Assembly: GCA_030634165.1 (NCBI GenBank)
Contig: DAOWBH010000001.1
Span: forward strand, 7,361-71,360
From: Spirochaetota bacterium
Lineage (GTDB): Bacteria > Spirochaetota > JAGLSM01
Direction of reading: 5' to 3'
DNA length: 64,000 bases
The notes beneath the pieces are model-generated. The model was given only the letters and a program-made list of their open reading frames with translations. It searched no databases and was not told the origin of the DNA. This document shows, piece by piece, positions 6,790-56,770 of the stretch. Positions within the stretch are counted from its first letter, which is position 1, and the number at the start of each line of letters is the position of its first letter. The translations under genes were made by a program, and so were the position numbers.

Positions 6790-6833
6790 TTGATGTATTT
6801 ATCCCGATCTATCGATCGGGATAAATACATCAA
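6790..6833. repeat. 44-bp perfect palindrome with 20-bp arms and a 4-nt loop (TTGATGTATTTATCCCGATC-TATC-GATCGGGATAAATACATCAA)
   Basis: Read directly from the sequence. It shares a TCCCGATC/GATCGGGA core with a second palindrome at 7167-7210. Confidence 0.9.
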
Positions 6834-6996
6834 TTGGAAAATATGAATCAACATCAGAATTAGTTGCACATCCTAACAAACAAAATTTTAGATGGATAAG
6901 TATCAGTTGCACAACCTCATTTTTTTTAAAAAGTGTAAGATTATTCTGTCTTATCAAAATGATTTTACATAACCGGAGTCAAACAAAGCGGAATCA

Positions 6997-7142
6997 GTTG
7001 CAGAACTTGATTTTTTTGAAAAATGCACTGCTTGAGTAACTAAATATTCAACTAGAAATTAAATTTTCACCTGCACACAACTTTCTTTATCTAATTAATT
7101 ATATACGAGTTTGCATTTTCAAAAAAATCAAGTTCTGCAACA
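6997..7142. mobile_element. MITE-like 146-bp element, copy 1, with perfect 26-bp terminal inverted repeats GTTGCAGAACTTGATTTTTTTGAAAA / TTTTCAAAAAAATCAAGTTCTGCAAC
   Basis: The TIRs are exact reverse complements. The element has no coding capacity. Two more full copies lie at 30735-30880 and 40934-41100. Degenerate left-end fragments (GTTGCACA...) sit at 6863 and 6906. Confidence 0.8.
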
Positions 7143-7166
7143 TCCTCATAAGCCATATTTTACCAT

Positions 7167-7210
7167 TTAAGCATTTTGTCCCGATCATCAGATCGGGACA
7201 AAATGCTTAA
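7167..7210. repeat. 44-bp perfect palindrome (TTAAGCATTTTGTCCCGATC-ATCA-GATCGGGACAAAATGCTTAA)
   Basis: 20-bp arms and a 4-nt loop, read from the sequence. It pairs with the palindrome at 6790-6833 to bracket the MITE cluster. Confidence 0.9.
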
Positions 7211-7303
7211 ATAAAAAATCATTGATATATTCATGAGTTTGTTATAAAATCTAATTAAAGTATCTGAATAAGCCGATTCAAATACTTTAAGGAGGACTGC
7301 TTA

Positions 7304-8029: not shown

Positions 8030-8067
8030 GTTCATTTTTTTCTTTTTTGTAAAAGAAAAAAATGAAC
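8030..8067. terminator. Putative bidirectional terminator hairpin with a 17-bp perfect stem, between convergent comFB-like and aroK
   Basis: GTTCATTTTTTTCTTTT-ttgt-AAAAGAAAAAAATGAAC. It is AT-rich but long and is flanked by T/A runs on both strands. A G7 run immediately follows the comFB stop codon. Confidence 0.4.
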
Positions 8068-30459: not shown

Positions 30460-30605
30460 GGAAATTTCCTGAATATAGATTTTATAGATACATAAAATTT
30501 ACAACATATCCAAGAATAGTCTATATTTTGATTCATGTATGTCAAGCTCTTTATCCAATATATGCAACAATCGCATATGTCAAAAAAAGTACTTTCATAC
30601 ACCAC

Positions 30606-30680
30606 CTAACCCTATCCCTTCCCTTGTTCGCTTCGCAGGGAAGGGGAACGTTGAAAATTAATATCGAGCATTTTTTTGGA
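30606..30680. repeat. Dispersed hairpin repeat, copy A (CCTAACCCTATCCCTTCCCT-loop-AGGGAAGGG...TTGAAAATTAATATCGAGCATTT)
   Basis: Near-identical to copy B at 56648-56715 except for the hairpin loop (12 nt here, 4 nt in copy B), which is the part expected to vary if the stem is selected. Intergenic. Confidence 0.7.
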
Positions 30681-30734: not shown

Positions 30735-30880
30735 TGTTGCACAACCTGATTTTTTTGAAAAATGACTGTTTGAGTAAATAAACCATCTATTAACAAATAA
30801 ATTTTATGCCCAACAAATGACTTCTTTAGATAATAAATTCAATACGAGTTTCATTTTCAAAAAAATCAGGTTGTGCAACA
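30735..30880. mobile_element. MITE-like element, copy 2 (146 bp; TIRs GTTGCACAACCTGATTTTTTTGAAAA / TTTTCAAAAAAATCAGGTTGTGCAAC)
   Basis: Perfect 26-bp TIRs. Its internal sequence is conserved with copy 1 (AATACGAGTTTCATTTTC). It ends 4 bp before the stop codon of the 30885-31985 gene. Confidence 0.8.
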
Positions 30881-30884
30881 TTAT

Positions 30885-31985
30885 CTAGAATCTAAGACCG
30901 GAACCAATACTGGTAAACAGCGTTCTGAAACCACTTGTATAATCAAGACCAATACTTATATCTGTCAGTAAAAATAAAATTGAATACCTCATACCAAGAC
31001 TTGTGGAGTATTTTGTGTTTGCTGAAGAATCAATAGTCATCCTCGATTCAAAACCTATCCCTGTTCTCCAATAAAACTGCCAGTTTCTATTGTAGTAATC
31101 ATTAACCAGAAAATGTAGTTCAAAATATGCAGAAATCTCTACCATCCTGTTTCTTTTTTCGTAAAACTTCCCCAGAAAACCAAAGGATAAAATAGTATTC
31201 TCCACATCAAATATAAAATCAGCTCCAAGAGCCGTTATTCCTGTATCCGGTACAGTGCTTAATAAACCCCATTGTGAAGCAAAAAGCTCCTTGGGAAGCG
31301 CCCAGTCATACCTGAATAGTACATTAAATGTAACCGATCTTGAGCGGGCATCACCCTTGTACTTGTTTCTCGCGTCATACTTCAGCTTTGAGTCCCTGTC
31401 TATTACGAGTTTTTTGTCTTTTTTCTTTTTACGCTGTTTTACTGCCTTATTTTTAATGGTCCTTTTTTTTACCGCATATACCGAAAATTTATATTTGGTT
31501 TTAAACAGATTTCTGACCTTACTTGTAAAATCAGAAAGTATTATATTTTTTTGAGCCAAAAAGTCAGAAATTGAAACCGTTGCAATAACCATTCCTGTTT
31601 TTATACTGAGAAGCCTTCCCTTAACACGGATAATACTTGAGTTTTTGAAATACTTTACTCTTCCGAAAAATATTAAATCTGCAGCAAGCCGCCTTCCAAA
31701 TCTCTGGAGAACAAGATCATTATCAAACTGTTGTTTGCTTGCTTTGTATTTTTTACGAAGTTCCAGGATATCTTCTTTTTCAACCAGATCAACATTCGGT
31801 AAATTTCTCAGAGAATTCTTTATAGAAATACTTATCTGATGAGTATAGTTTTTTATTACAGGATTTTTACCCTTATATTCCAAATCCATAATAGATACAA
31901 CCATAAACTCTTGCGCTTTTAAATTACCAAATATTAAAAGAACCAGAATAAGAATATACCCTGTTAAGAGTGAATACCTTTTCAT
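30885..31985 (-). CDS. outer-membrane beta-barrel protein, hypothetical, with a Lys-rich internal linker
   Basis: Signal peptide. C-terminal amphipathic strands ending ...GSGLRF. No catalytic motif. Confidence 0.4.
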   Translation of the reverse strand: MKRYSLLTGYILILVLLIFGNLKAQEFMVVSIMDLEYKGKNPVIKNYTHQISISIKNSLRNLPNVDLVEKEDILELRKKYKASKQQFDNDLVLQRFGRRLAADLIFFGRVKYFKNSSIIRVKGRLLSIKTGMVIATVSISDFLAQKNIILSDFTSKVRNLFKTKYKFSVYAVKKRTIKNKAVKQRKKKKDKKLVIDRDSKLKYDARNKYKGDARSRSVTFNVLFRYDWALPKELFASQWGLLSTVPDTGITALGADFIFDVENTILSFGFLGKFYEKRNRMVEISAYFELHFLVNDYYNRNWQFYWRTGIGFESRMTIDSSANTKYSTSLGMRYSILFLLTDISIGLDYTSGFRTLFTSIGSGLRF

Positions 31986-32914
31986 TTATTCTTCCCCTTT
32001 ATAATCATCCTTCTTTTAAAAAGAAACTTCGCTTTCACAAAAGAATTTTCCGCCAAAAAAAATTTCTGAGTTTTTAGATACATATTACCAAGATCAAGAT
32101 ATAGGTCAGGATCACTGGGATTCTTTTTAATATTCTTTTTTATTATTGCAATTTTATAAAGATCCTCATTGGTAAAGTAATTATCTTTGAATATATTCTT
32201 TGTTAATTCAGAATCCTTTTTTACCGATTTGTCTGTTATCTTGCCTTCCCTGCGGTTAATGGTATCAATTCCGAGTATAGCATACTGACGCAGTTCTTCC
32301 TTGTCCTTTGATTTATTATTTTCAACGATTTTTTTCAATTCTTTGATATTTGAGCTATCACCAAGCTTTGCTATAATTGCAATAGCGCTTTTGCGGATAT
32401 CACGGCTTTCACTGCTGTAGGATGATTCTTTTTTTAAAAGAGCCTCCAAATGAGGAACGCATGTCTTATCCCCTATTTTATGCAAAGCTGCAACCGCTGA
32501 CGATCGAATAATTGCGGACGGTGATAATAAATATGAAACAACCAATGAAGTATATGAAGAGTTCCCCTTTTCTCCAATAAAAGTAAGATATTCCTCAACT
32601 AAATATGGATACTTTTCAGCTTTTAGAAGTGCAACAACCTTATCCAGGCTTTTTCTATCTTCTTTCTTTACTATTAAATACATACCGAAAACAGCATTTC
32701 TCTTTACTGAATAAGTAACATTTAATTCAAGAATTTTTATGAGATAAGGAATTACCTTCTGTGTTTTAATATCCGTAAGTTTTCTCACAAACTTTATACG
32801 GTCTGTATCATTTTTCTGTTTTATAAAATCATTAAATAGATCATGCGCTTTATCAGAAGCAAAAACTGTCACAGAAAAGAGAATCAAGTAAATGATCATA
32901 ATTATTCTTCTCAT
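31982..32914 (-). CDS. HEAT/PBS-lyase-like repeat protein, secreted
   Basis: Signal peptide. Repeated HEAT-like units (e.g. RSSAVAALHKIGDKTCVPHLEALL). Confidence 0.55.
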   Translation of the reverse strand: MRRIIMIIYLILFSVTVFASDKAHDLFNDFIKQKNDTDRIKFVRKLTDIKTQKVIPYLIKILELNVTYSVKRNAVFGMYLIVKKEDRKSLDKVVALLKAEKYPYLVEEYLTFIGEKGNSSYTSLVVSYLLSPSAIIRSSAVAALHKIGDKTCVPHLEALLKKESSYSSESRDIRKSAIAIIAKLGDSSNIKELKKIVENNKSKDKEELRQYAILGIDTINRREGKITDKSVKKDSELTKNIFKDNYFTNEDLYKIAIIKKNIKKNPSDPDLYLDLGNMYLKTQKFFLAENSFVKAKFLFKRRMIIKGKNK

Positions 32915-33119
32915 TTTATCTCCTATAAATAGCCCTTGTTCAAAACCTCACGGTTAGAAAATATCAGGGTATTATTATTAAGTCTATATTCCTATACTAT
33001 AGTATATCGCAAAATTTCACTTACACCTGTAGTAAAAGCATTTTTTTCATTTACTGTTTATGGTTTAAATATACATAAGGGTCTCTATAAAAACCCAATA
33101 AAAGATCAGCGGAAATTCG

Positions 33120-33330
33120 TCCAATCCAGGCTGTCCCTTAACTGTGAAGACACCACATAATCTCAATAATTTGAGAAAATTGAGCTAATTTCAGCATATT
33201 TATAATCAAAATACTGGAAAAAACCTGCAATTTCACCTGAAATAAGTAGTTCTGAAGTATCCGATGAATTAAGGGACAGCCTGAATCCGTAAGATCCACG
33301 TTCTATCCCATTTAATTGATAGAACGCAGA
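33120..33330. ncRNA. Candidate structured RNA or leader: long-range inverted repeat (TCCAGGCTGTCCCTTAA ... TTAAGGGACAGCCTGAA) closing a roughly 160-nt domain, followed by an 8-bp hairpin
   Basis: The 15-bp perfect arms at 33124-33139 and 33268-33285 extend with a single mismatch. A second hairpin, GTTCTATC...GATAGAAC, lies at 33300-33328. Both sit inside a 580-bp non-coding region upstream of the giant kinase gene. Strand undetermined. Confidence 0.3.
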
Positions 33331-33497
33331 TCTTTATGGATGCAACTAATCTTTTCAATTATCTATAATACCAAAATAACCTCTTTATGCCTGAAACCAG
33401 GCTTGACTTTTCCAATAACTCGTTTATGATTTAATTACAAGTAGCTTTTAAAGCTATGAAATCAACCCAAAAAAAGCGAAAATAAAGAAACGATTTT

Positions 33498-36400
33498 ATG
33501 CTAAACAAGACAATCAATAAAAAGTATAAAATAATAGGAAATATAGGCGAAGGCGGGATGAGTAAAGTATATCTTGCCAGGAATATTCATGATGAAAAAA
33601 AAGTAGCAGTAAAGTTTCTCAAAACCGGAACAATATCCGACAGAATCGAAGACCTTATAAGGTTCCGCGGAGAAGCGGCAATCATATCTGTACTCAAGCA
33701 TCCAAACATAGTAAAAATCCTTGAAATAGGTGAATATCAAAAAAAACACTATATTGTTATGGAGTATCTCAATGGAGAAAGTTTATCCGATAAAATATTG
33801 CATAACAGAAAATTCAAGGTAGATGATGCCGTAGAAATAGTAAAGCAAATATGCAAAGCCCTTGCCTACATACATGGTTTAGATATAATACACATGGATT
33901 TAAAACCCGGTAACATTATAATAAACAGTAATGTGAAATTAATAGACTTTGCTCTCGCTCAAATTAAAGAATCTACTCAAATAAAAAACACGGATGAGAT
34001 TGTAGGCACATTCAGTTACATGTCTCCTGAACAAAGCGGTACTGTAAAAAGTGAAGTTGACCAGAGGAGCGATCTTTACTCTCTTGGAATAATATTTTAC
34101 CAGATGCTAAGCGGTAAACTCCCATATAGAGGAAAGAGTATAAGTTCAATTATTCACCAGCATATATCTAAAACTCCAATACCCCTTGACAAGGGAAACA
34201 GAGAGATACCTGAAATAATTCAGATGATTGTAAAAAAACTAATGGAAAAGGATCCTGACAAGAGGTATCAAAGTACCAAAGGATTATTATCTGATCTTAT
34301 AAGGTTTGAAAAGGGAGACAGATCATTTAATCTTGACCTGCTGAACATTTCTATAAAACTTACTTATAAAACCAAGCTTGTAGGAATAGATGATAAATTA
34401 AAAAAAATAAAAAGGCTTTTTGATCATAGTCTTGAAAAAAATGGTTCAGCATGTCTTATAAGCGGAGAAGCCGGATGCGGTAAGACACGGCTGTCAGAGG
34501 AATTGCATACTTATGTTTCTTCAAATGGAGGAAATTTCATTTCGGGAAAATGTTTTTCATCAGAGAATCCTGAACCATATGCTCCTTTTAAAGACGCGCT
34601 TAATATCTATATAAACAGGTTCAACAGGTATTCAGAAAACAAAAAAAAGAAAATTATAGGAAAAATAAAAAGCCGGACAGGAAACCTTGGAGAAGCCATA
34701 TTAAAGCTCAACCCGATGCTTAAGACAATAATCGGTAAAACCCCGCCCCTTGTTAAACTGGAACCTGAAAGAGAGAACGAAAGATTTCTGATGGTTGTGA
34801 GCAAATTCTTCCAGGCTCTGGGAGCAGCTGAAAACGGTCTTGTCCTGAAACTGCAGGACCTTCAATGGGCTGATGAAGGAAGCATAGAAATCCTGAGTTT
34901 CATACTTGATAATATAAACAATATTCCGTTATTCCTTATCGGCACTTACAGGGACAACGAAGTAAAACCGGGGGGGAGGCTCTCAGGTCTGATAACAACA
35001 GCAAAATCCCAACCTAAAAGTTCAGTTAAACAAAAAAAGTTTCACAAGATTCATCTGGACCTTTTTAACAAAAAAGAAATGAACAGCTTTGTATCGGATA
35101 TGCTGCGTGACAAACAGGAAAATATACAGGAGATTTCGCATTTTGTTTTCCGGAAGAGCAAGGGAAATCCGTTTTTTGCGACTGAACTGATAAAACAGCT
35201 TATACTGAACTCTGCAATTTTTTACAAAAGAAACCGTTGGCATATTAACAAGCCGGTCCTCAAGAAAACTCAAGTATCCGAATTGATAGCTGACATACTA
35301 CTTAACAGGATAAAGAATTTAAACAGGGTACAGAAAATAATACTGTCATATTCGGCAGTAATAGGCAAAAAACTGGACATATCCCTTTTATATACTCTTT
35401 TTACTAACTCAAAGAAAAAACGGATATATTTTTCAAAAGAGAGAATTAAGGAAGCTATTGATGACGCTGTTTCTCTTCAGCTGCTTGAAAAAAACAATCA
35501 GGATAGAGGAAATTCTCTTTTTATTCATGACAGAATAAAAGAAGCTTTTTACAAGAATATAAAATTAAAGAAGAGAAGACAGCTTCACCTTCAGATTGCC
35601 GGAGCCCTGGAAAATATAAATAAAACTGCACTTAAGAAGGATATTCAAAATTGTGAAGTACTGTTTGATCTGGCTCATCATTATATAGAAGCAAAGGCTC
35701 CTGAAAAATCTCTGGAATATTCTTACCAGGCAGGGATTAAATCCAAAAATAACTACGCAAATGAAAATGCCGTAAAGTACTTTACAATTGCAAGAAACAT
35801 TTTGCTAAGGAGTGGAGATAAAACCAGTAAAATGTGGATTAAATGTACTGAACATCTCGGAGAAATATACCTGACAACTGGAAATAATGACAAAGCTATC
35901 AGGATATTTAATGAGATCCTGGATTTGATGCAGACTAAGACACAGAAGGCAAACATTTATAGACAGATAAGCTCGGGATATTTTAAAAAAGGAGATCTTA
36001 AAAACTGTGAATACTACGGCAGAATCGCCTTAAAACTCCTTGGAGAAAGAGTTCCTAAAACAAAGATAATATTGATATTGAGTATGATAAAAGAAACATT
36101 CCTGCACATACTTCATTCAGTTTTTCCTGGAGTCTTCCTAAAAAAGAAAAATACTGCAAATAGTGAAAAAAGGTTGAGGCAAACACTGATAATCCAGACT
36201 TATAACTCATTAAGCTGGTCATATGTTCTATCAGATACATGGAATTTCATCAGAACCGTACTCAGAATGCTCAACATATCCGAAAGCAGAATAGGTAAAT
36301 CAAAAGAACTTGCTATGAGCATGGGATTTTATGCCGCCGGTTGTATGGCCATACCTCTTTTTAGCAGGTCGTTGAAGTATCATATCAGGGCGCTCAAAAT

Positions 36401-38114
36401 TAAGAATGAACTTGGAGATGAATGGGGATCTGCACAGTCTCTTCAATTTTTGGGATACCTCTTTGAATGGAAAGCCGATTTCCATAGAAGCATCGATTAT
36501 TTCAGTAAAAGTCTGGATATATTCAAAAAGATCGGGGACACTAAAGAAACAACAATGTCCCAAAACGGTTTAGTATCAAACTACTATAATTTATCCGATT
36601 ATAAAAAGACACTTGATATTGGTATTGAGTATTTAGATTATTGCAAGAATAGCCTGGATAAATTTGGCATAGGAGATTCATACAACAATTTTTCAAAATG
36701 CTATATTGCCATGGGTGATTTTAACAACGCCGAAAAATACGCCAGGCAGGCATTAAAAATAAGTAATGAAAAGAATATGAGTTTGAATTACTGTATTTCA
36801 AATATCTATCTCGGTGTAGTTAATATGAAAAGAAAAAATCATGATACCGCATTGAAGTATCTCAATATAGCAAAAGATGTTTTTAAAAAAAACAAGCTTC
36901 TTAAACAATATTCTGTATTCCTTTATTTTTATTTAGCTCAAGCCTATATTCAAAAGTATAGGGAAAGTTCCAATTCAAAAGTGCTACTAAAGAAAATAAA
37001 AAAAACATGCAGATCCGGAATTAAAAAATCAAAATCATGGCCGACCCACTACCCTGTAGCACTTAGAACTATGGCCAATTATTTTGCATTAATAGATAAA
37101 AGTAAAAAAGCAGAAAAACTCTTCATTGAGGCGATAAGCCTCTGCCGGAAAAGAAACCTGCAATATGATCTTGCTAAATCACTCTACGATTACGGACTTT
37201 TTCTAAAATACAAAGGCAGAGAGATTGATACCATGTTTAATCTTGAATATGCATACAAAATTTTTAAAGGAATTGATTCAAAACTATTCCTGCAAAAAAC
37301 CGGTGATCTTCTAGGCATTAAAGAAGAACATAGAGCCATTGACAGATTAAAAGACAAACAGAAACTCATTTCTCTAATCAAGGTAAGTCAGAATATCAGT
37401 TCAATTCTAAATCTCAATGATCTTTTAAAACAGATAATATCAAAAGCAATTGAAGTCACCGGTGCCCAAAGGGGACACTTATTTATTGTTAATGATAAAA
37501 CAAAAAAGCTTGAAATTAAAGCCAGCACAAGTCCATTAAATGGAAAAATCAAACATTACTCTACCAATATAGTAGAACAGACATTCAAGACCCATAAGGC
37601 CATTATAACAACAAATGCGGAAATCGAAAAAGAGTATAAACAGTTCAACAGCATTGTTGAATATGGGCTGAAATCAATCCTATGTATTCCCATTATCCGT
37701 CATAAGAAACTAATAGGCGTTTTTTATATTGATAACTATCTATCAAGCGGGGTTTTTTCCGACGAGGATGTTGAACTCTTAAATGTCTTTATGGTTCAGG
37801 CGGCAATCGCCATTGAAAACGCAATAGTATACAGCAAAATTGATAATCTGAATAAAAACCTGGAATTGGAAATATTAGACCATAAAAAGACAGGTAAAAA
37901 ACTGCTTAAAGCACGTGATCAATTGGCAAAACGTGTAGATACTCTTGAAGGTTTTCTCCCTATCTGTTCATTCTGTAAAAAAATTCGGGATGATGACGGA
38001 AAATGGAACAATATAGAAACATATATAACAAAAAGGTCAAAAGCCAAATTCAGTCACGGTCTTTGTCCTGACTGCCTGAAAAAAAACTATCCTGAACACT
38101 CAAATCTGGTTTAA
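33498..38114 (+). CDS. Giant signalling protein: Ser/Thr protein kinase + STAND-type P-loop NTPase + TPR-like array + GAF domain + C-terminal Cys/His motif
   Basis: Kinase: G-loop GNIGEGGMSKVY, VAVK Lys, catalytic HMDLKPGN, DFA in place of DFG, SPE. P-loop GEAGCGKT near 34463, followed by an hhhhD Walker B-like segment. A long helical TPR-like region follows. GAF domain at about aa 1290-1450. C-terminus CSFCKKIRDDDGKWNNIETYITKRSKAKFSHGLCPDC. Confidence 0.75.
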   Translation: MLNKTINKKYKIIGNIGEGGMSKVYLARNIHDEKKVAVKFLKTGTISDRIEDLIRFRGEAAIISVLKHPNIVKILEIGEYQKKHYIVMEYLNGESLSDKILHNRKFKVDDAVEIVKQICKALAYIHGLDIIHMDLKPGNIIINSNVKLIDFALAQIKESTQIKNTDEIVGTFSYMSPEQSGTVKSEVDQRSDLYSLGIIFYQMLSGKLPYRGKSISSIIHQHISKTPIPLDKGNREIPEIIQMIVKKLMEKDPDKRYQSTKGLLSDLIRFEKGDRSFNLDLLNISIKLTYKTKLVGIDDKLKKIKRLFDHSLEKNGSACLISGEAGCGKTRLSEELHTYVSSNGGNFISGKCFSSENPEPYAPFKDALNIYINRFNRYSENKKKKIIGKIKSRTGNLGEAILKLNPMLKTIIGKTPPLVKLEPERENERFLMVVSKFFQALGAAENGLVLKLQDLQWADEGSIEILSFILDNINNIPLFLIGTYRDNEVKPGGRLSGLITTAKSQPKSSVKQKKFHKIHLDLFNKKEMNSFVSDMLRDKQENIQEISHFVFRKSKGNPFFATELIKQLILNSAIFYKRNRWHINKPVLKKTQVSELIADILLNRIKNLNRVQKIILSYSAVIGKKLDISLLYTLFTNSKKKRIYFSKERIKEAIDDAVSLQLLEKNNQDRGNSLFIHDRIKEAFYKNIKLKKRRQLHLQIAGALENINKTALKKDIQNCEVLFDLAHHYIEAKAPEKSLEYSYQAGIKSKNNYANENAVKYFTIARNILLRSGDKTSKMWIKCTEHLGEIYLTTGNNDKAIRIFNEILDLMQTKTQKANIYRQISSGYFKKGDLKNCEYYGRIALKLLGERVPKTKIILILSMIKETFLHILHSVFPGVFLKKKNTANSEKRLRQTLIIQTYNSLSWSYVLSDTWNFIRTVLRMLNISESRIGKSKELAMSMGFYAAGCMAIPLFSRSLKYHIRALKIKNELGDEWGSAQSLQFLGYLFEWKADFHRSIDYFSKSLDIFKKIGDTKETTMSQNGLVSNYYNLSDYKKTLDIGIEYLDYCKNSLDKFGIGDSYNNFSKCYIAMGDFNNAEKYARQALKISNEKNMSLNYCISNIYLGVVNMKRKNHDTALKYLNIAKDVFKKNKLLKQYSVFLYFYLAQAYIQKYRESSNSKVLLKKIKKTCRSGIKKSKSWPTHYPVALRTMANYFALIDKSKKAEKLFIEAISLCRKRNLQYDLAKSLYDYGLFLKYKGREIDTMFNLEYAYKIFKGIDSKLFLQKTGDLLGIKEEHRAIDRLKDKQKLISLIKVSQNISSILNLNDLLKQIISKAIEVTGAQRGHLFIVNDKTKKLEIKASTSPLNGKIKHYSTNIVEQTFKTHKAIITTNAEIEKEYKQFNSIVEYGLKSILCIPIIRHKKLIGVFYIDNYLSSGVFSDEDVELLNVFMVQAAIAIENAIVYSKIDNLNKNLELEILDHKKTGKKLLKARDQLAKRVDTLEGFLPICSFCKKIRDDDGKWNNIETYITKRSKAKFSHGLCPDCLKKNYPEHSNLV

Positions 38115-38129
38115 AGTATGTTTAACTTA

Positions 38130-39215
38130 TTACAACTTGTTTAGAAATGCAGGGTTTGTTGGATTAGAAATATCATAAAGAACAACACCATCATTTCCTG
38201 TTAGAATCATAGTGTCGTCTGTAACAATTACATCATAACCATTATAACCCTGTAATCGAACCTCTTTTGACACATTGCTTACATCTGAAACATTAAATAT
38301 CTCCAAACCATCATATCCATCACAAACATAAGCATAAGCTCCGCTTACAGCCAATCCATATGGGGCATCCATTCCTATAATATCAGTAACAAACATGTTA
38401 GATATATCACTTATATTTATTACCTCAAAACGGCTGCTTGGACCGTCAATAAAAGAGCCGTCTCTTAATGTTACATAAGCAAAATTTGATTGTACGACTA
38501 CAGGATCATAGGACCGTGCGTGTGTAAGCCTGGACAAATAAACCGGATTTGCTCTATTAGAAATAGAATATACATAAACACCTTCATTACCGCCAAGAAA
38601 CAATAAATTCCTGTCTTTAACCGGAAAAATTGTTTCAATATCCCATCCAATTTCAGCATCTCCAACAGCATCAGGATTTGTTGGATTTGAAATAGAAAAC
38701 ACCTTCATTTGTGAATATTTTAATGAATACAAATAATTGTCAACAATGGAAAATCTCGCCATCGAGCCTCCAGTACTTGACAGCATGGTTGTAGCAGAAT
38801 CTGAACTGCATCCAACTCCACATCCAAACCCGGAGTCATCACCAAGATCACCGGTAGCGCCATAATAATTGCCGGTGGCATCCGGAATAATTCTAATTAG
38901 CCGGGGATCAGTAAGCATGCTAATATCATATACATGCAAATTTCCATAACTGTCAGCATATAAGGCATTACTATAAACAGCAATATCTATATTATTAGAA
39001 ATAGCTATTGTACTAAGCCGAATTGGATTTAATGGAGTAGAAATATTAAAAATATGAACACCGCGAAATCGATCATTTACAAATAATGTTGAACCTTTAA
39101 TCCAGATTTTTCCCGGCTCTGTTATTGTATTTGGATCAAGAACTGCCCGAGATTTACTATTCATCGCACTAACAAAAAATAAAAAGACTACTAAAAAACT
39201 AATTATACGTGACAT
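38130..39215 (-). CDS. secreted LVIVD-repeat beta-propeller protein
   Basis: Signal peptide. Repeated LVIVD-like units (IAVYSNALYADSYGNLHVYDIS; AYAYVCDGYDGLEIFNVSDVSNV). Convergent with the kinase gene, 15 bp apart. Confidence 0.55.
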   Translation of the reverse strand: MSRIISFLVVFLFFVSAMNSKSRAVLDPNTITEPGKIWIKGSTLFVNDRFRGVHIFNISTPLNPIRLSTIAISNNIDIAVYSNALYADSYGNLHVYDISMLTDPRLIRIIPDATGNYYGATGDLGDDSGFGCGVGCSSDSATTMLSSTGGSMARFSIVDNYLYSLKYSQMKVFSISNPTNPDAVGDAEIGWDIETIFPVKDRNLLFLGGNEGVYVYSISNRANPVYLSRLTHARSYDPVVVQSNFAYVTLRDGSFIDGPSSRFEVINISDISNMFVTDIIGMDAPYGLAVSGAYAYVCDGYDGLEIFNVSDVSNVSKEVRLQGYNGYDVIVTDDTMILTGNDGVVLYDISNPTNPAFLNKL

Positions 39216-39525
39216 AAAATTCCTCCAACTATTTAAGAAATGAAAGAGTCCTGGATACTGTCTATAAAATCTAATCGATTACTTCATTTCTTCTTGATAA
39301 ATCTGGTTTCCCACACCTAATTATACTATTATACATCATAAATGACGGCTTTTCAATTATTTCTCTGATTTAGAACAGCAAAATTAATATTATTAGCAAT
39401 ATTTTAACAAAAAATGTCAGGACTGAAAAGCAAGCAAATATTTATACAAAAATAAGATTTATCTAAGTATTTTTTTACTAATGTACTATAATTAAAGCAT
39501 AAGCTGGTAAACTGAGGTTAATAAG

Positions 39526-40191
39526 ATGATTAAAAAAGCTTTATTTGTTTTTTCTATTGTAATTCTACTAAACTCTGTCCTATTCGCTTCCAAGGGTTTT
39601 TATGTTCATTTTGGTCCATCATATGAAAATATCACTTTTACATATAATTCCTCTCCAAGTAATTCAATAAAATATGCTACAGAATATGCATTCGGGGCCG
39701 GAGCAGTTACTTTCGGCTATATGTTCAACTGGTTTTCATTTGATGTTTCATTATCTCTGGATACAATTTATACCTCAATGACCCTCTCCTCCGGCACTAA
39801 TCTTTCCAATTACACCTACACCGGTGATGAGCGACTGCATTATGGAGGAATATCCATTGACTTGAATTTCTATCCTCTGGAATTCTTTATAACTGATGGT
39901 TCTAGCAAAATCAAACCATACCTTGGGATAGGTTACGAGCTTCTCGCGTTTATTGACAATAATAACGGCGGGAACGGATTATTCGGATATTCAATAACAC
40001 TGGGTGCCGGCATAAAATGGTTCTTTGGTAAAAACGCAGAAGACTTTTATATCGGCTTCGGCTTCAAATACAGGCTTTTAACGTTAAACAACAATTATTC
40101 ATCAGGAGTCAGGTCTGATATTCCTTCGGGAGAATCTATTACAGATACAGCCTCATATAGTTTTTCTCTATATGCAGGGTATCTTTTCTAA
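39526..40191 (+). CDS. small outer-membrane beta-barrel protein, hypothetical
   Basis: Signal peptide. Alternating aromatic/Gly strands. C-terminal ...YAGYLF. Confidence 0.45.
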   Translation: MIKKALFVFSIVILLNSVLFASKGFYVHFGPSYENITFTYNSSPSNSIKYATEYAFGAGAVTFGYMFNWFSFDVSLSLDTIYTSMTLSSGTNLSNYTYTGDERLHYGGISIDLNFYPLEFFITDGSSKIKPYLGIGYELLAFIDNNNGGNGLFGYSITLGAGIKWFFGKNAEDFYIGFGFKYRLLTLNNNYSSGVRSDIPSGESITDTASYSFSLYAGYLF

Positions 40192-40215: not shown

Positions 40216-40874
40216 TATTCTTTATTCTTCCAAGTGAATCAGAGTACAATCCTGTAATAAAAAAGTTAACCCCAAAAATTCTGCCGGATTATAACTTTAT
40301 TTCTGTCATAGCAAATGACTCCTGCAATTTCTATTTTGTAAAATCAGGAATCGGAAAAAAGAAAGCAATATCAACCGTAAGAAAAATCTGCTCGGACTTC
40401 AAACCCCATCTTATAATATCTTCTGGATGCTGCGGAGGTTTAAAATCCTATATAAAACCATACAGTATTTTTTCACCGGTTGAAGCGCTGTCTGAAAATA
40501 ATAAGAGCTGCAGGCTTCTAAGCCTTAGAAGCAAAATATACAAATCCTCTATTTTTGAAGGAAAATCCTTTTCTGTTAAAAAACCCGCGGACAGGGGAAA
40601 AAAATTACTGATTGCAAAGTATCATCCTGAAGCTTTCTTTGTAGATATGGAAACATATTGGGTAGCAAAGACATCCAAAGATCTTGGCATCAGATGCTCT
40701 TCTTTAAGAATCTCTGTTGATAGTCTAAAAAATAATATTCCGACTTTTAGTAAAACACATATGTCTATAAGCAAAGTTAAAAACTTTTTTTTAAAACTTA
40801 TTTATAAACACAAAGCATCAAAGGCAATGAGAAAACTGTCAGGAATTATTGAAGAATTGCTTGTTCAATTTTGA
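40216..40874 (+). pseudogene. PNP/UDP-phosphorylase-family nucleosidase (MTA/SAH nucleosidase or futalosine hydrolase-like) broken by a -1 frameshift in an A7 run. There is no ATG start.
   Basis: The frame from about 40216 to 40644 encodes ...ISVIANDSCNF...LIISSGCCGGL..., matching the nucleosidase Gly-rich substrate loop. The frame from 40590 to 40874 encodes ...PEAFFVDMETYWVAKT...SLRISVD, matching the catalytic ME and RxSD region. The two frames overlap across AAAAAAA at 40608-40614. Adding one A would fuse them. A GGAG lies at 40205-40208, but only a CTG at 40216 is available as an in-frame start. Confidence 0.55.
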
Positions 40875-40933
40875 AGTTTATCTAAGAAGCTGTTGTATAA
40901 TCTGGCAAACAAAGTATTATGTGAAATTACATC

Positions 40934-41100
40934 AGTTGCAGAAACTCATTTTTTTGAAAATGCACTGTGTGAGTAGCAAATGACTCTATAAGCAAATAAA
41001 TTTACATCAACAGACATGCTTCTTTGGGTAATTAATTAAATACGTTTGCGAAGCAACTCCGAAGGAGAATTTCATTTTTAAAAAAATAGGGTTATGCAAC
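40934..41100. mobile_element. MITE-like element, copy 3 (167 bp; degenerate right TIR; about 21-bp internal insertion)
   Basis: Left TIR GTTGCAGAAACTCATTTTTTTGAAAA. Right TIR TTTTTAAAAAAATAGGGTTATGCAAC. It ends 6 bp before the hisF stop codon. Confidence 0.7.
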
Positions 41101-41106
41101 GCACCC

Positions 41107-41865
41107 CTAATCCAGTCTAACCGGAATGTCATTTTCCTTCAGATGATGCTTGACCTGATCAATACTGAGTTCACGAAAGTGAAACAATGAAGCAGCAAGA
41201 ACCGCATCCGCATGTCCATCCTGTATAACTTCAGAAAAATGAGAAAGATCTCCAGCTCCGCCTGAAGCAATTACCGGGATTTTCACTGCATCTGCTACAG
41301 CCCTGGTTAAGGCCACATCGTATCCGTTTTTAGTTCCGTCACAATCCATACTGGTTAATAGTATTTCTCCGGCACCTCTTTTTTCTACCTCAACAGCCCA
41401 CGAAACAACATCAATACCTGTCGGAGTTCTTCCTCCGTGTATATAGACTTCCCAATCTTCTGTATTTTTTTTGGCATCAATAGCAACAACAACAAATTGT
41501 GAACCAAATTGTTCAGCTCCATCGTTTATGAGCTGTGGATTTTTTACAGCCGCTGTATTTATTGATGTTTTATCCGCCCCGGCAAGAAGCATCATTCTCA
41601 TATCGTCTACGGTTCTTATTCCGCCGCCTACCGTAAAAGGAATATAAACCGATTCAGCTACCCTTTTCACAACATCTATCATTGTACCGCGGTTATCACT
41701 TGATGCTGTAATATCCAGGAATACCAGTTCATCCGCTTTCTCTTTATCATATTGAATGGCATTTTCGACCGGATCCCCAGCATCAACAATATTTACAAAG
41801 TTAACACCCTTAACCACACGGCCCTTGTCTACATCAAGACAAGGAATAATCCTCTTAGCAAGCAT
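41107..41865 (-). CDS. hisF: imidazole glycerol phosphate synthase cyclase subunit
   Basis: N-terminus [19 protein letters not shown] and a full-length (beta/alpha)8 pattern. Confidence 0.9.
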
Positions 41866-45799: not shown

Positions 45800-47581
45800 T
45801 TAACCCTGATTCTTTTTTGATTCTGTTTTTGGTTTGTCTGTCTTTTTTTTATTGCCTTTATCATTGCCTTTATCATTGCCTTTATCATTGCCTTTATTAT
45901 TAATAGAAGACAGATCAATCATGTCTCCGAGTCTAAAAGTACCCTTATCCTCACTTTTATACTGGTTTACCAGTTCTTTTTCGACATCTTTATTATAATC
46001 CTTTATTGATAGAGAAATCTTAGAACTATTCATGTCAATATTAAGAAGCTTGACATTTACAGAGTCCCCGACCTTAACCACTTCTTCAACCTTATCTACT
46101 TTTTTATTAGATAATTTTGAAATATGAACCAGTCCTTCAATTCCAGGTGAAAGCTCAACAAAAGCTCCAAAGTCAGAAACCCTGGTCACCTTGCCTGTCA
46201 TCTTGGATCCCGGAGGGTTATTGTAACTAAAAACAGCAAGCGGATTCTCCTCAAGCTGTTTAATACCAAGCCCTATCTTTTTATTTTTTTTATCAATTGA
46301 AAGGATCTGCACCTCTACCATATCTTCAACAGAAAACTGCTTTTTTGCATCATTGTCTTTTTTATCCCAGCTTAGGTCTTCTTTCCTCACAAGTCCTTCT
46401 ATGCCGTTTGAAAGTTCAACAAAAATACCAAATTCTGTTATGTTTACAATTTTTCCGGTATGTTTTGAAGCAAGAGGGAAATCCTCTTCTATTGAATCAA
46501 ATGGATTCTGAAGTAATTGCCGGAAGCCCAGTGAAATCCTTCTCTTTTCCTTGTCAATTCCAAGAATTTTAACTTGTATCTCAGAACCTGTTTCGAGTAC
46601 CTGTTTAGGGTGATTAATCTTTTTTGTCCAGGATAGTTCTGATATATGAAGTAAACCCTCGATGCCTCCAGCCAGAGAAACAAAAGCACCAAAATTTTCA
46701 AGTTTAACAACTTTCCCCTCGACAACATCTCCAACGTTATGAGCTTCAGAAAAAGAATGTATTGGATCCGGTTCCAGATCCTTTAAGGATAATGACACCT
46801 GATGCTTTTCTGTATTAATTTTTAGAATTTTAACTTTAACTTTATCACCAATACTAACAAGAGAACTTGCCTTTGCCTGCTTATTCCATGAAAGATCTCC
46901 AAGAGAAATGAGTCCATCCATTCCGCCAATATCAACAAAAACTCCAAACCTGCTGATACCGCTGACAGTACCTTCTATTACATCTTTTTCTTTTATCCTG
47001 CTAAAAACCTCTTGTATGTCTTCTTCTCTCTTAGCAGACAGAATATCCCTTCTCGAAGCAACAACACTGAAATTCTTGCCCTTATCAACTTTTATTATTT
47101 TAAAATCAAAGATCTTTCCAATATATTGTTTAGGATCCTGTACCCGTGAAAGTTCGAGGTGACTTAATGGAACATAGCCCGGAACACCGTCAAATTCGGC
47201 CATCATTCCACCCTTGGCTTCCTTAACAATCTTGCCGGAAACAAGTGCTCCGGTTTCAAAAGCATCTTCAAGAGTTTTCCGCATAACCCTCGACAAAGCG
47301 CGTTTCTTTGATACAACAAGTTCCCCTGATTTTCCATGGGTTGTAAGAACCACTACCGGAAATTTTTCTCCCTCCACCGGAGGCGTATCAAACTCTTCAA
47401 GTAATATTTTACCTTCAGATTTATATCCGACATTGACCCATACGGATTCGTTGTCAACCATAACAACGGTACCTTCAATAACTGCACCTTTTTGGACTGA
47501 CTGCATTGTGGAATGTGCATCCAAATCGAGTGTGGCTGTTTCCATTGTCATATCTTCGCTGCTTTCAAGTTTTTCTTCCAA
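45800..47581 (-). CDS. rpsA: 30S ribosomal protein S1 with a C-terminal (GNDK)4 repeat tail
   Basis: Six S1 domains, with a recurring GxxVxGxVxxIxxFGAFVxL pattern. The C-terminus reads [19 protein letters not shown]. Confidence 0.85.
45852..45899. repeat. 12-bp tandem repeat x4 (TTGCCTTTATCA) inside the rpsA 3' end
   Basis: Direct read of the sequence. It encodes (GNDK)n on the minus strand. Confidence 0.85.
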
Positions 47582-56647: not shown

Positions 56648-56715
56648 CCGCTGACCTAACCCTATCCCTTCCCTCGAAGGGAAGGGTACTGTTGAAAATT
56701 AATTTCGAGCATTTC
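56648..56715. repeat. Dispersed hairpin repeat, copy B (CCTAACCCTATCCCTTCCCT-CGAA-GGGAAGGG...TTGAAAATTAATTTCGAGCATTT)
   Basis: Matches copy A at 30606-30680, with a shorter loop. Intergenic between argG and argF. Confidence 0.7.
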
Positions 56716-56770
56716 TTTATCTATAGGGGCTAAGGGGAATAGGTAAATCTACCTATATCTAAAGACTGCA

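What the first reader, a model, noticed from the sequence alone, without database searches (positions are those of the whole stretch)
6997..7142. Unannotated MITE-like element family with perfect 26-bp terminal inverted repeats (3 full copies in 64 kb)
The sequence at 6997-7142 is bounded by exact 26-bp reverse-complementary ends, GTTGCAGAACTTGATTTTTTTGAAAA and TTTTCAAAAAAATCAAGTTCTGCAAC. It has no ORF. Near-identical 146-167 bp copies recur at 30735-30880 and 40934-41100. Three copies in one window implies a high genomic copy number, and so a cognate transposase encoded elsewhere in the genome. Each element can fold end to end into a long hairpin.
Basis: seen in the sequence. Interest (0 to 1): 0.7.

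Follow-up and report, generated by a model that had tools for sequence, protein, structure and literature searches.

The report
MITE-like palindromic repeat family, cold-seep spirochaete
A real family of about 145-base non-coding repeats with 26-base inverted ends is scattered between housekeeping genes of an uncultured cold-seep spirochaete; it behaves like an ordinary miniature transposon relic, a kind already known to be common in this phylum.

Summary
The three copies are c1 6997-7141, c2 30736-30879 and c3 40935-41100. A lone end lies at 6906-6931. c1 and c2 each have perfect 26/26 inverted ends. c3 has 21/26 and a 23-nt internal insert. The copies are 73-75% alike, not near-identical.

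The window is core chromosome of a 'Spirochaetes bacterium' MAG from a South China Sea cold seep. It contains no transposase.

- **Signs of mobility:** a fourth copy (c4) sits in a variant strain where the window has none. Another variant lacks c3, and homology stops within 4 nt of both c3 ends. Relatives at 75-79% HisF identity lack c2 and c3. Other assemblies repeatedly break inside c2 and c3.
- **Against a textbook MITE:** there are no target-site duplications and no partner transposase was found. Sequence outside the left end is also shared between copies. The family is absent from every public collection I could scan.
- **Hairpin:** the two end differences between c1 and c2 are mirrored in both arms, so end-to-end complementarity is maintained.

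The best reading is a lineage-specific non-autonomous mobile repeat resembling Correia or ERIC elements (confidence about 0.6). It is a new member of a known kind, of modest interest. Genome-wide copy number could not be measured.

The parts
6997..7141 (+). Copy c1, 145 nt. Its terminal inverted repeats 6997-7022 and 7116-7141 are 26/26 complementary. It lies in the divergent spacer between a 672-aa gene (-) and a ComFB-domain gene (+).
6906..6931 (+). Solitary left-type terminal repeat (GTTGCACAACCTCATTTTTTTTAAAA) with no partner arm. It is probably the remnant of an older copy.
6863..6905 (+). Box resembling the terminal repeat (GTTGCACATCCTAA, then CAAACAAA ... ATCA), lying directly upstream of the solitary end. 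It is 71% identical, together with the adjoining end, to 40885-40960.
   Evidence: (family D6)
30736..30879 (+). Copy c2, 144 nt. Its terminal inverted repeats 30736-30761 and 30854-30879 are 26/26 complementary. They differ from c1 at positions 7 and 11, in both arms. It lies 5 nt after the stop codon of the 366-aa gene 30885..31985 (-).
40935..41100 (+). Copy c3, 166 nt. Its terminal inverted repeats 40935-40960 and 41075-41100 are 21/26 complementary. It lies 6 nt after the hisF stop codon (41107..41865, -), and 60 nt after the stop of a convergent PNP_UDP_1-like ORF (40281-40874).
41045..41067 (+). 23-nt internal insert TTTGCGAAGCAACTCCGAAGGAG, made of two mini-hairpins. It is identical, with its flanks (37 nt in all), in copy c4 of another strain (L131:2564-2730).
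40892..40934 (+). Box resembling the terminal repeat (GTTGTATAATC, the same as the first 11 nt of c4's left end, then GGCAAACAAAG ... ATCA), lying upstream of c3. It is retained, at 74% identity, in the variant strain that lacks c3.

Best explanation
These are copies of a lineage-specific, non-autonomous mobile repeat, a MITE in the broad sense. Each copy has a core of about 95-115 nt between 26-bp terminal inverted repeats of the form GTTGCA.AA....ATTTTTTTGAAAA.

- **Inferred, not shown:** the ends are recognised in trans by a transposase encoded elsewhere in the genome, or one that was once present. That enzyme has placed copies into A+T-rich intergenic DNA, often just after stop codons.
- **Shown:** the copies are modular and exchange segments with each other.
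- **Inferred:** the close inverted arms stay complementary through selection for transposable ends together with arm-to-arm correction (quasipalindrome template switching). When a copy is transcribed with its neighbouring gene, it would form a hairpin with a stem of about 26-28 bp. That hairpin could affect mRNA processing or stability, as described for Correia and ERIC elements.
For: - **Dispersed copies.** Three full copies and one solitary end lie at unrelated loci in 64 kb of housekeeping chromosome.
- **Conserved ends.** Between c1 and c2 the ends match at 24/26 positions, while the interiors are 63% identical.
- **No coding capacity**.
- **Copy c4.** A fourth copy at L131:2564-2730 (right end also at L132:1-44) lies between the LVIVD gene and the 221-aa gene. 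The window (39365-39440) and strain L130 have no copy there.
- **c3 missing in variants.** In variant strains, homology to the window ends at 41100 (L006, L007) and at 40938 (L130). Those positions are within 4 nt of the two c3 ends, and a different insert follows.
- **Absent in relatives.** In relatives at 75-79% HisF identity, hisF abuts the convergent PNP-like gene. The orthologue of the 362-aa gene has a 115-nt upstream spacer. Neither place holds an element.
- **Mosaic copies.** c4 is 85% identical to c2 but carries c3's 23-nt insert at 100% identity. L133 joins the hisF-proximal two thirds of c3, with no differences, to a different left end and different downstream genes.
- **Assembly breaks.** Independent assemblies stop inside c2 (30837 twice, 30842) and inside c3 (41049 twice, 40985).
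- **Precedent in the phylum.** Spirochaete genomes are reported to average about 145 MITEs each (PMC11602168).
- **Definition.** The features that define a MITE are taken from PMC3184786.
Against: - No direct repeat flanks any of c1-c4.
- No transposase or integrase domain occurs in the window or in the fetched contigs.
- Shared sequence extends beyond the left end. c1, c3, the solitary end and the L133 junction share CAAACAAAG...ATCA, and c2 and c4 share AAAGGAT..GAATAA. The right end carries 2 nt that differ by subfamily. A clean cut-and-paste element would not show this.
- Neither polymorphic site offers a clean empty site. The flanks of c4 are diverged, and c3 is replaced by another insert.
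- Only five or six loci were seen, and genome-wide abundance is unmeasured.
- These assemblies also break at places with no repeat (for example 51865 and 30241), so contig ends are weak evidence.
- The arms co-vary: four pairs changed on both sides. This fits selection on pairing as well as it fits recognition by a transposase.
Confidence: 0.6

Rival explanations
1. A host-selected structural element. The long hairpin itself is the functional unit, as a + strand RNA or as a single-stranded DNA or cruciform structure. It might process or stabilise mRNA 3' ends, act as an antisense RNA against the ends of the minus-strand genes, or act as an insulator. On this reading the family spreads by recombination rather than transposition.
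For: - c1 and c2 keep 26/26 pairing although they differ at two stem positions, and both differences are compensated.
- Over c1-c4, 96.2% of stem cells pair on the + strand (6 of 500 shuffles reach this), against 91.3% on the - strand (32 of 500). The difference is all G·U pairs, 6 against 1.
- c2 lies 5 nt and c3 6 nt after a stop codon.
- There are no target-site duplications.
Against: - No interior structure is supported, and the covariation term is positive, which is unfavourable.
- The better-pairing + strand is antisense to the genes that c2 and c3 follow.
- No promoter-like or terminator-like site lies inside the elements.
- c3 and c4 tolerate five mismatches in the stem.
- No Rfam family matches.
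- Copies are gained and lost between strains and are absent in relatives.
- Six G·U against one is not significant (about p = 0.06). A C-to-T mutation bias could also produce it.
Confidence: 0.2
2. A mobile element that inserts in one orientation, without target-site duplication, by a single-strand or hairpin mechanism (in the manner of IS200/IS605-type or IS110-type elements) or by targeting sequences that resemble its own ends.
For: - No target-site duplications.
- All five independent ends or copies have the same polarity in a region that lies in one replichore. GC skew is negative throughout and most genes are on the - strand.
- Three of six left junctions follow ATCA.
- Boxes resembling the terminal repeat sit 43-44 nt upstream of two left ends.
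- DNA folding of c1 gives -28.7 kcal/mol, z -6.8.
Against: - IS200/IS605 elements carry small subterminal hairpins, not 26-bp terminal inverted repeats (my own knowledge).
- The junction tetranucleotide is not constant: it is ATCA, GACT, TTAA or ATAA.
- Polarity of 5 out of 5 has p of about 0.06.
- No HUH or other transposase was seen.
Confidence: 0.12
3. Binding sites or operators for a DNA-binding protein, conserved as cis-regulatory elements of the flanking genes.
For: - c1 lies in a divergent promoter region.
- The outer GTTGCA and the A/T tract are invariant in nearly all ends.
Against: - c2 and c3 lie at gene 3' ends.
- The neighbouring genes are functionally unrelated.
- The sites are not conserved in relatives or across strains.
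- A conserved 95-nt core and a solitary end are not expected of operators.
Confidence: 0.05

Closest known systems
Correia elements (CREE/NEMIS) of Neisseria
   Same: Both are about 104-157 bp non-coding repeats with 26-bp terminal inverted repeats. Both are intergenic and close to genes, have internal insertion or deletion variants, fold into long hairpins, and differ in position between close strains (PMC3184786).
   Different: The host phylum differs. By my recollection the end sequences are unrelated; no Correia reference was available to align. Correia elements duplicate a TA target, and no such duplication is seen here. IHF sites and outward promoters are described for Correia, and no promoter-like sites were found inside these copies.
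ERIC / IRU elements of Enterobacteriaceae
   Same: Both are imperfect palindromes of about 127 bp in transcribed intergenic regions, often downstream of genes. Both have internal insertions at fixed points and show evidence for constraint on pairing (PMC3184786; the pairing constraint is from my own knowledge).
   Different: ERIC-type elements are described with target duplications and flanking TA. There is no sequence relationship. Here the copies vary between strains at 95-98% identity.
MITEs counted in Spirochaetes genomes (Leptospira, Sediminispirochaeta, Treponema)
   Same: Same phylum. High MITE loads are reported, averaging 145 per genome, mostly intergenic (PMC11602168).
   Different: That census required terminal inverted repeats plus target-site duplications, which this family lacks. 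I could not compare sequences with that catalogue.
Nezha, Chunjie and RUP type MITEs that have an identified parent IS
   Same: Similar size, terminal inverted repeats, stable predicted hairpin, and filled-versus-empty site differences between relatives.
   Different: Those families share ends and direct repeats with a known insertion sequence. No parent IS was found here.

Membership tests
Bacterial MITE (non-autonomous class II element; definitions in PMC3184786 and PMC11602168) | Small size (generally under 200 bp; range 50-800 bp) | tested here: met
   The copies are 144, 145, 166 and 167 nt long.
Bacterial MITE | Terminal inverted repeats of at least 10-15 bp | tested here: met
   The terminal inverted repeats are 26 bp. 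They are 26/26 complementary in c1 and c2, and 21/26 in c3 and c4.
Bacterial MITE | No transposase gene in the core | tested here: met
   All six frames are interrupted by stops. Only 21-29 aa ORFs cross the ends.
Bacterial MITE | Several copies at non-homologous sites | tested here: met
   c1, c2, c3 and a solitary end lie in the window. c4 lies in L131, and a further left end lies in L133.
Bacterial MITE | Target-site duplication (2-10 bp direct repeat) at both ends | tested here: not met
   The last 5-7 nt before each copy and the first 6 nt after it are: GGAATCA / ATCCTC (c1), GAGACT / ATTATC (c2), ACATCA / GCACCC (c3) and TTTAA / GCTTCC (c4). No direct repeat is present under any register tried.
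Bacterial MITE | A parent insertion sequence with the same ends, or a transposase acting in trans | tested here: inconclusive
   None is present in the 64-kb window or in about 150 kb of fetched contigs. The remainder of the genome could not be searched.
Bacterial MITE | Filled versus empty sites in close relatives | tested here: inconclusive
   c4 is present in L131 and L132, and absent in the window and L130. c3 is absent in L006, L007 and L130. However, the flanks of c4 are diverged, and the c3 site holds another insert, so no clean empty site is available.
Bacterial MITE | Folds into a long, stable stem-loop | tested here: met
   z-scores are -8.8 (c1), -7.1 (c2) and -3.0 (c3).
Correia element (Neisseria) | TA target duplication and the Correia 26-bp end sequence | tested here: not met
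   No TA flanks any copy. The ends start with GTTGCA. The Correia sequence itself was not available for alignment, so the statement that the ends are unrelated rests on my own knowledge.
REP/BIME (RAYT-associated) | 20-40 nt G+C-rich palindrome tagged by GTAG or CGTC | tested here: not met
   The unit is 145 nt, the stem is A+T-rich, and there is no GTAG or CGTC tag at the ends. The definition comes from the abstract of PMC3733652.
IS200/IS605-derived palindrome-associated elements | No terminal inverted repeats, no target-site duplication, insertion 3' of a fixed 4-5 nt target, strand bias | tested here: inconclusive
   No target-site duplication and uniform polarity agree with this family. 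The long terminal inverted repeats and the variable junction tetranucleotide do not.
Integron attC site | RYYYAAC at the start and GTTRRRY at the end, downstream of a cassette ORF, with an integrase nearby | tested here: not met
   GTT and AAC sit at the outermost ends, in the reverse arrangement. hisF is an operon gene with conserved synteny. No integrase lies in the window. The attC consensus is from my own knowledge.
Any Rfam RNA family | Score at or above the family's gathering threshold | tested here: not met
   The window has no matches at gathering scores. Below threshold there are only generic hairpin matches, such as plant miRNA precursors.

The most novel reading that the evidence does not exclude
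The elements are not cut-and-paste MITEs. They are hairpin-dependent elements that insert in one fixed orientation relative to replication, without target duplication. Their arms are kept complementary because the folded single strand (+ strand DNA or RNA) is the active form. The same hairpin sites act as landing pads for other retro-elements: a putative group II intron occupies the exact c3 position in a sister strain.
Probability: 0.12. Interest if true: 0.55.

Novelty: new member of a known kind. Interest (0 to 1): 0.3.

Why it matters
- **Practical.** The family fragments short-read assemblies of this cold-seep spirochaete, because contigs end inside copies. It also marks places where strains differ in structure. 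Any pangenome or strain analysis of these MAGs should mask or model it.
- **Biological.** It adds a family from an uncultured deep-sea lineage to the already MITE-rich Spirochaetes.
- **One less ordinary feature.** It offers a small, clean example of inverted ends that co-vary between copies while lacking target duplications. That combination would only become interesting if genome-wide data confirmed it.

Tried and rejected
- **Two-end pattern.** Scanning GTDB representative genomes and JGI metagenomes for both ends together gave 0 hits.
- **Single-end pattern.** The single 26-mer pattern gave 32 and 78 loci. All were single hits in unrelated taxa, and nhmmer found no match to the interior, so they are chance matches. 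IMG/VR gave 0.
- **BLAST.** blastn of c2 against PLSDB plasmids and against phage records found nothing.
- **Rfam.** The gathering-threshold scan found nothing, and the E-value scans returned only generic hairpin hits.
- **Peptide trick.** I concatenated six-frame peptides of the element and searched 5.8 billion proteins, hoping to find spurious ORFs called across other copies. Nothing scored at E <= 10.
- **Extending the window.** Edge-protein look-ups returned no exact records.
- **Target-site duplications.** None was found in any register.
- **Promoters and terminators.** None lies inside the elements.
- **Interior RNA structure.** No support.
- **attC-like reading.** Rejected because the core sites are in the wrong arrangement.
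- **PNP pseudogene idea.** I first thought the PNP-like ORF next to c3 was a pseudogene. The frame is open over 197 codons and only the TTG start has become CTG, so I withdrew that idea.
- **Related elements in sister species.** None was found in L118 or L119.

Full report
**What is in the sequence**

The window holds three full copies of a repeat, all in the same orientation.
- c1 is 6997-7141 (145 nt).
- c2 is 30736-30879 (144 nt).
- c3 is 40935-41100 (166 nt).

c1 and c2 each end in perfectly complementary 26-nt arms. c3's arms agree at 21 of 26 positions, and c3 carries a 23-nt internal insert at 41045-41067.

A solitary left-type end lies at 6906-6931. Boxes resembling the terminal repeat, each followed by CAAACAAA(G)...ATCA, lie upstream of that solitary end (6863-6905) and of c3 (40892-40934).

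The degenerate 26-mer matches six times, against none in 100 shuffles. The copies are 73-75% identical overall and 63-69% in the interior, so 'near-identical' is an overstatement. No ORF longer than 29 aa touches an element.

As RNA, c1 folds at -44.6 kcal/mol (z -8.8) and c2 at -42.1 (z -7.1). c3 is weaker, at -37.4 (z -3.0) on the + strand and -32.3 (z -2.3) on the - strand.

**Where it comes from**

The HisF protein of the window is 100% identical to one annotated in a 'Spirochaetes bacterium' MAG (GCA_023135745.1). It also occurs in assemblies of samples SAMN18200490-96. Those samples belong to the South China Sea Site-F cold-seep data set (PMC9357000).

The window is A+T-rich (34-39% G+C) and has negative GC skew throughout. 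Most of its genes are on the - strand. It encodes housekeeping functions: his, aro, pan, dap and arg genes, recA, htpG and pyruvate:ferredoxin oxidoreductase. It has no transposase or integrase.

**Position of the copies**

- c1 lies in a 575-nt divergent spacer between a 672-aa gene and a ComFB-domain gene.
- c2 begins 5 nt after the stop codon of a 366-aa gene, and lies 276 nt upstream of the next co-directional gene.
- c3 begins 6 nt after the hisF stop, and lies 60 nt after the stop of a convergent PNP_UDP_1-like ORF.

**Evidence on mobility**

1. *Relatives.* In relatives at 75-79% HisF identity (L118, L119) the his operon is syntenic. There hisF abuts or overlaps the convergent PNP-like gene, and no element is present. 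The orthologue of the 362-aa gene downstream of c2 has only a 115-nt upstream spacer, again with no element. The copies are therefore not conserved cis-elements at orthologous positions.
2. *A copy the window lacks.* In strains 95-98% identical to the window, a fourth copy, c4 (L131:2564-2730, 167 nt; right end also at L132:1-44), lies between the LVIVD gene and the 221-aa gene. The window (39365-39440) and strain L130 have no copy there.
3. *A strain without c3.* In strains L006, L007 and L130, homology to the window stops at 41100 on the hisF side and at 40938 on the other side. Both points are within 4 nt of the ends of c3. A different sequence follows, and its hisF-proximal end starts GTGCGGCCGAGCAAGGTCGCA. 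Its best Rfam hit is the first 28 positions of group-II-D1D4-4, but that hit is weak (12 bits, E 0.39).
4. *A recombinant or chimeric junction.* Scaffold L133 (HisF 99%) carries the hisF-proximal two thirds of c3 with no differences. It then switches to a different left end (GTGGTACACCCTCA...) and to different downstream genes. This implies either recombination or an assembly join with a further, closely related copy.
5. *Assembly breaks.* Independent assemblies end inside c2 (30837 twice, 30842) and inside c3 (41049 twice, 40985). This evidence is weak, because the same assemblies also break at places with no repeat.

Within the population closest to the window, c1, c2 and c3 are identical in every contig that spans them.

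**Features that do not fit a textbook MITE**

- No direct repeat flanks c1-c4 in any register.
- Similarity extends beyond the left end, in a way that differs by subfamily. c1, c3, the solitary end and the L133 junction share CAAACAAAG...ATCA. c2 and c4 share AAAGGAT..GAATAA. The two bases after the right end also follow subfamily: AT in c1 and c2, GC in c3 and c4.
- The box upstream of c3 is still present in the strain that lacks c3. There it is 74% identical, next to a gene that is about 96% identical. It is therefore a separate, fast-changing repeat unit or a preferred target, not part of the inserted segment.
- Copies are mosaic. c4 is closest to c2 (85%), yet it shares c3's insert and its flanks at 100% over 37 nt.

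**The hairpin**

c1 and c2 differ at two positions of the terminal repeat (7 and 11), and both differences are mirrored in the opposite arm.

Over c1-c4 the 26-bp stem pairs in 96.2% of cells on the + strand. Six of 500 shuffles reach that value. On the - strand the figure is 91.3%, reached by 32 of 500 shuffles. Four pairs show changes on both sides. The + strand advantage is entirely G·U pairs (6 against 1), which is not significant and could reflect a C-to-T bias.

No interior helix is supported, and no Rfam family matches.

Mirrored changes can arise without selection on an RNA. Two routes are selection for transposable ends in diverging master copies, and template-switch correction of close inverted repeats. 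The second is established knowledge, not tested here.

**Distribution**

- The two-end pattern has no match in GTDB representative genomes or JGI metagenomes.
- All hits to the single-end pattern lack the interior, so they are chance matches.
- IMG/VR, PLSDB and phage records hold nothing.
- A peptide-based search for other copies failed.
- The rest of this genome could not be reached, so copy number is unknown. Three copies in 64 kb would extrapolate to roughly a hundred or more in a genome of a few megabases. That is an extrapolation, not a result.

**Interpretation**

The best reading (confidence about 0.6) is a lineage-specific, non-autonomous mobile repeat of the Correia or ERIC kind. It has conserved ends, a drifting and modular core, decayed remnants, and gain and loss between strains. 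It also contributes to local rearrangement.

The transposase, the termini at single-base resolution, and any effect of the hairpin on neighbouring transcripts are inferred, not shown.

The rivals are:
- a host-selected hairpin element (0.2);
- a single-strand or hairpin-type mobile element that leaves no target duplication and inserts in one orientation (0.12);
- protein-binding sites (0.05).

**Novelty and score**

MITEs are well known, and Spirochaetes are reported to average about 145 per genome (PMC11602168). This is a new member of a known kind. Interest is 0.3. The missing target duplications, the co-varying arms and the coincidence with a putative group II intron site are worth a look once a complete genome is available.

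Noticed in passing
window 30604-30677 and 56654-56718; L133 3467-3990: A second repeat family. It is a G+C-rich hairpin, CCCTTCCCT-loop-AGGGAAGGG, with shared flanks (CTAACCCTAT before; GTTGAAAATTAAT.TCGAGCATTT after). One copy lies 60 nt from c2, one lies in the argF-argG spacer, and three more lie in scaffold L133.
   Followed up: partly
window 6790-6833 and 7165-7212: Two perfect palindromes (20-bp and 22-bp stems, 4-nt loops) share the core CCCGATC-N4-GATCGGG. They bracket the c1 cluster. Each sits about 9 nt upstream of an outward-facing promoter-like site (6781->6753 on the - strand; 7222->7250 on the + strand). Neither is followed by a T run, so they are not classic terminators. c4 in L131 is likewise followed, 21 nt later, by a palindrome with a 15-bp stem.
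   Followed up: partly
L006 10766-10814, L007 3' end, L130 3682-3729 (corresponding to window 40935-41100): Strains about 96-98% identical to the window carry a different insert exactly where c3 lies. Its hisF-proximal end starts with GTGCG and weakly matches the 5' part of Rfam group-II-D1D4-4 (12 bits, E 0.39). It is possibly a multi-copy group II intron, because the contigs end in it.
   Followed up: partly
window 33124-33141 / 33269-33286: An 18-nt inverted repeat (17/18 complementary, arms 127 nt apart) lies in the 583-nt divergent spacer upstream of the 1538-aa kinase gene. Four other assemblies end within this spacer (33028, 33175, 33229, 33259). It may be a different small palindromic element.
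   Followed up: no
window 30885-40191: Compared with L118 and L119, the window has about 9.3 kb of extra genes between the PNP-like ORF and the 362-aa gene. They are a 221-aa gene, an LVIVD-repeat gene, a 1538-aa Ser/Thr kinase with AAA_16 and GAF domains, a HEAT-repeat gene and a 366-aa gene. c2 sits at one edge of this block, and c4 (in another strain) lies inside it.
   Followed up: partly
window 40281-40874: A PNP_UDP_1-like ORF is open for 197 codons and 97% identical to the gene called in L130. Its TTG start is CTG in the window, so only a 75-aa ORF (40647..40874) is listed or annotated there.
   Followed up: yes
window 45845-45892: A 12-nt tandem repeat (TTTATCATTGCC, 3-4 units) lies inside the 593-aa S1-domain gene. 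The variant strain encodes 589 aa.
   Followed up: no
window 8030-8067: A perfect 17-bp palindrome made almost entirely of A and T lies between the convergent ComFB-domain and shikimate kinase genes. It is probably a bidirectional terminator.
   Followed up: no
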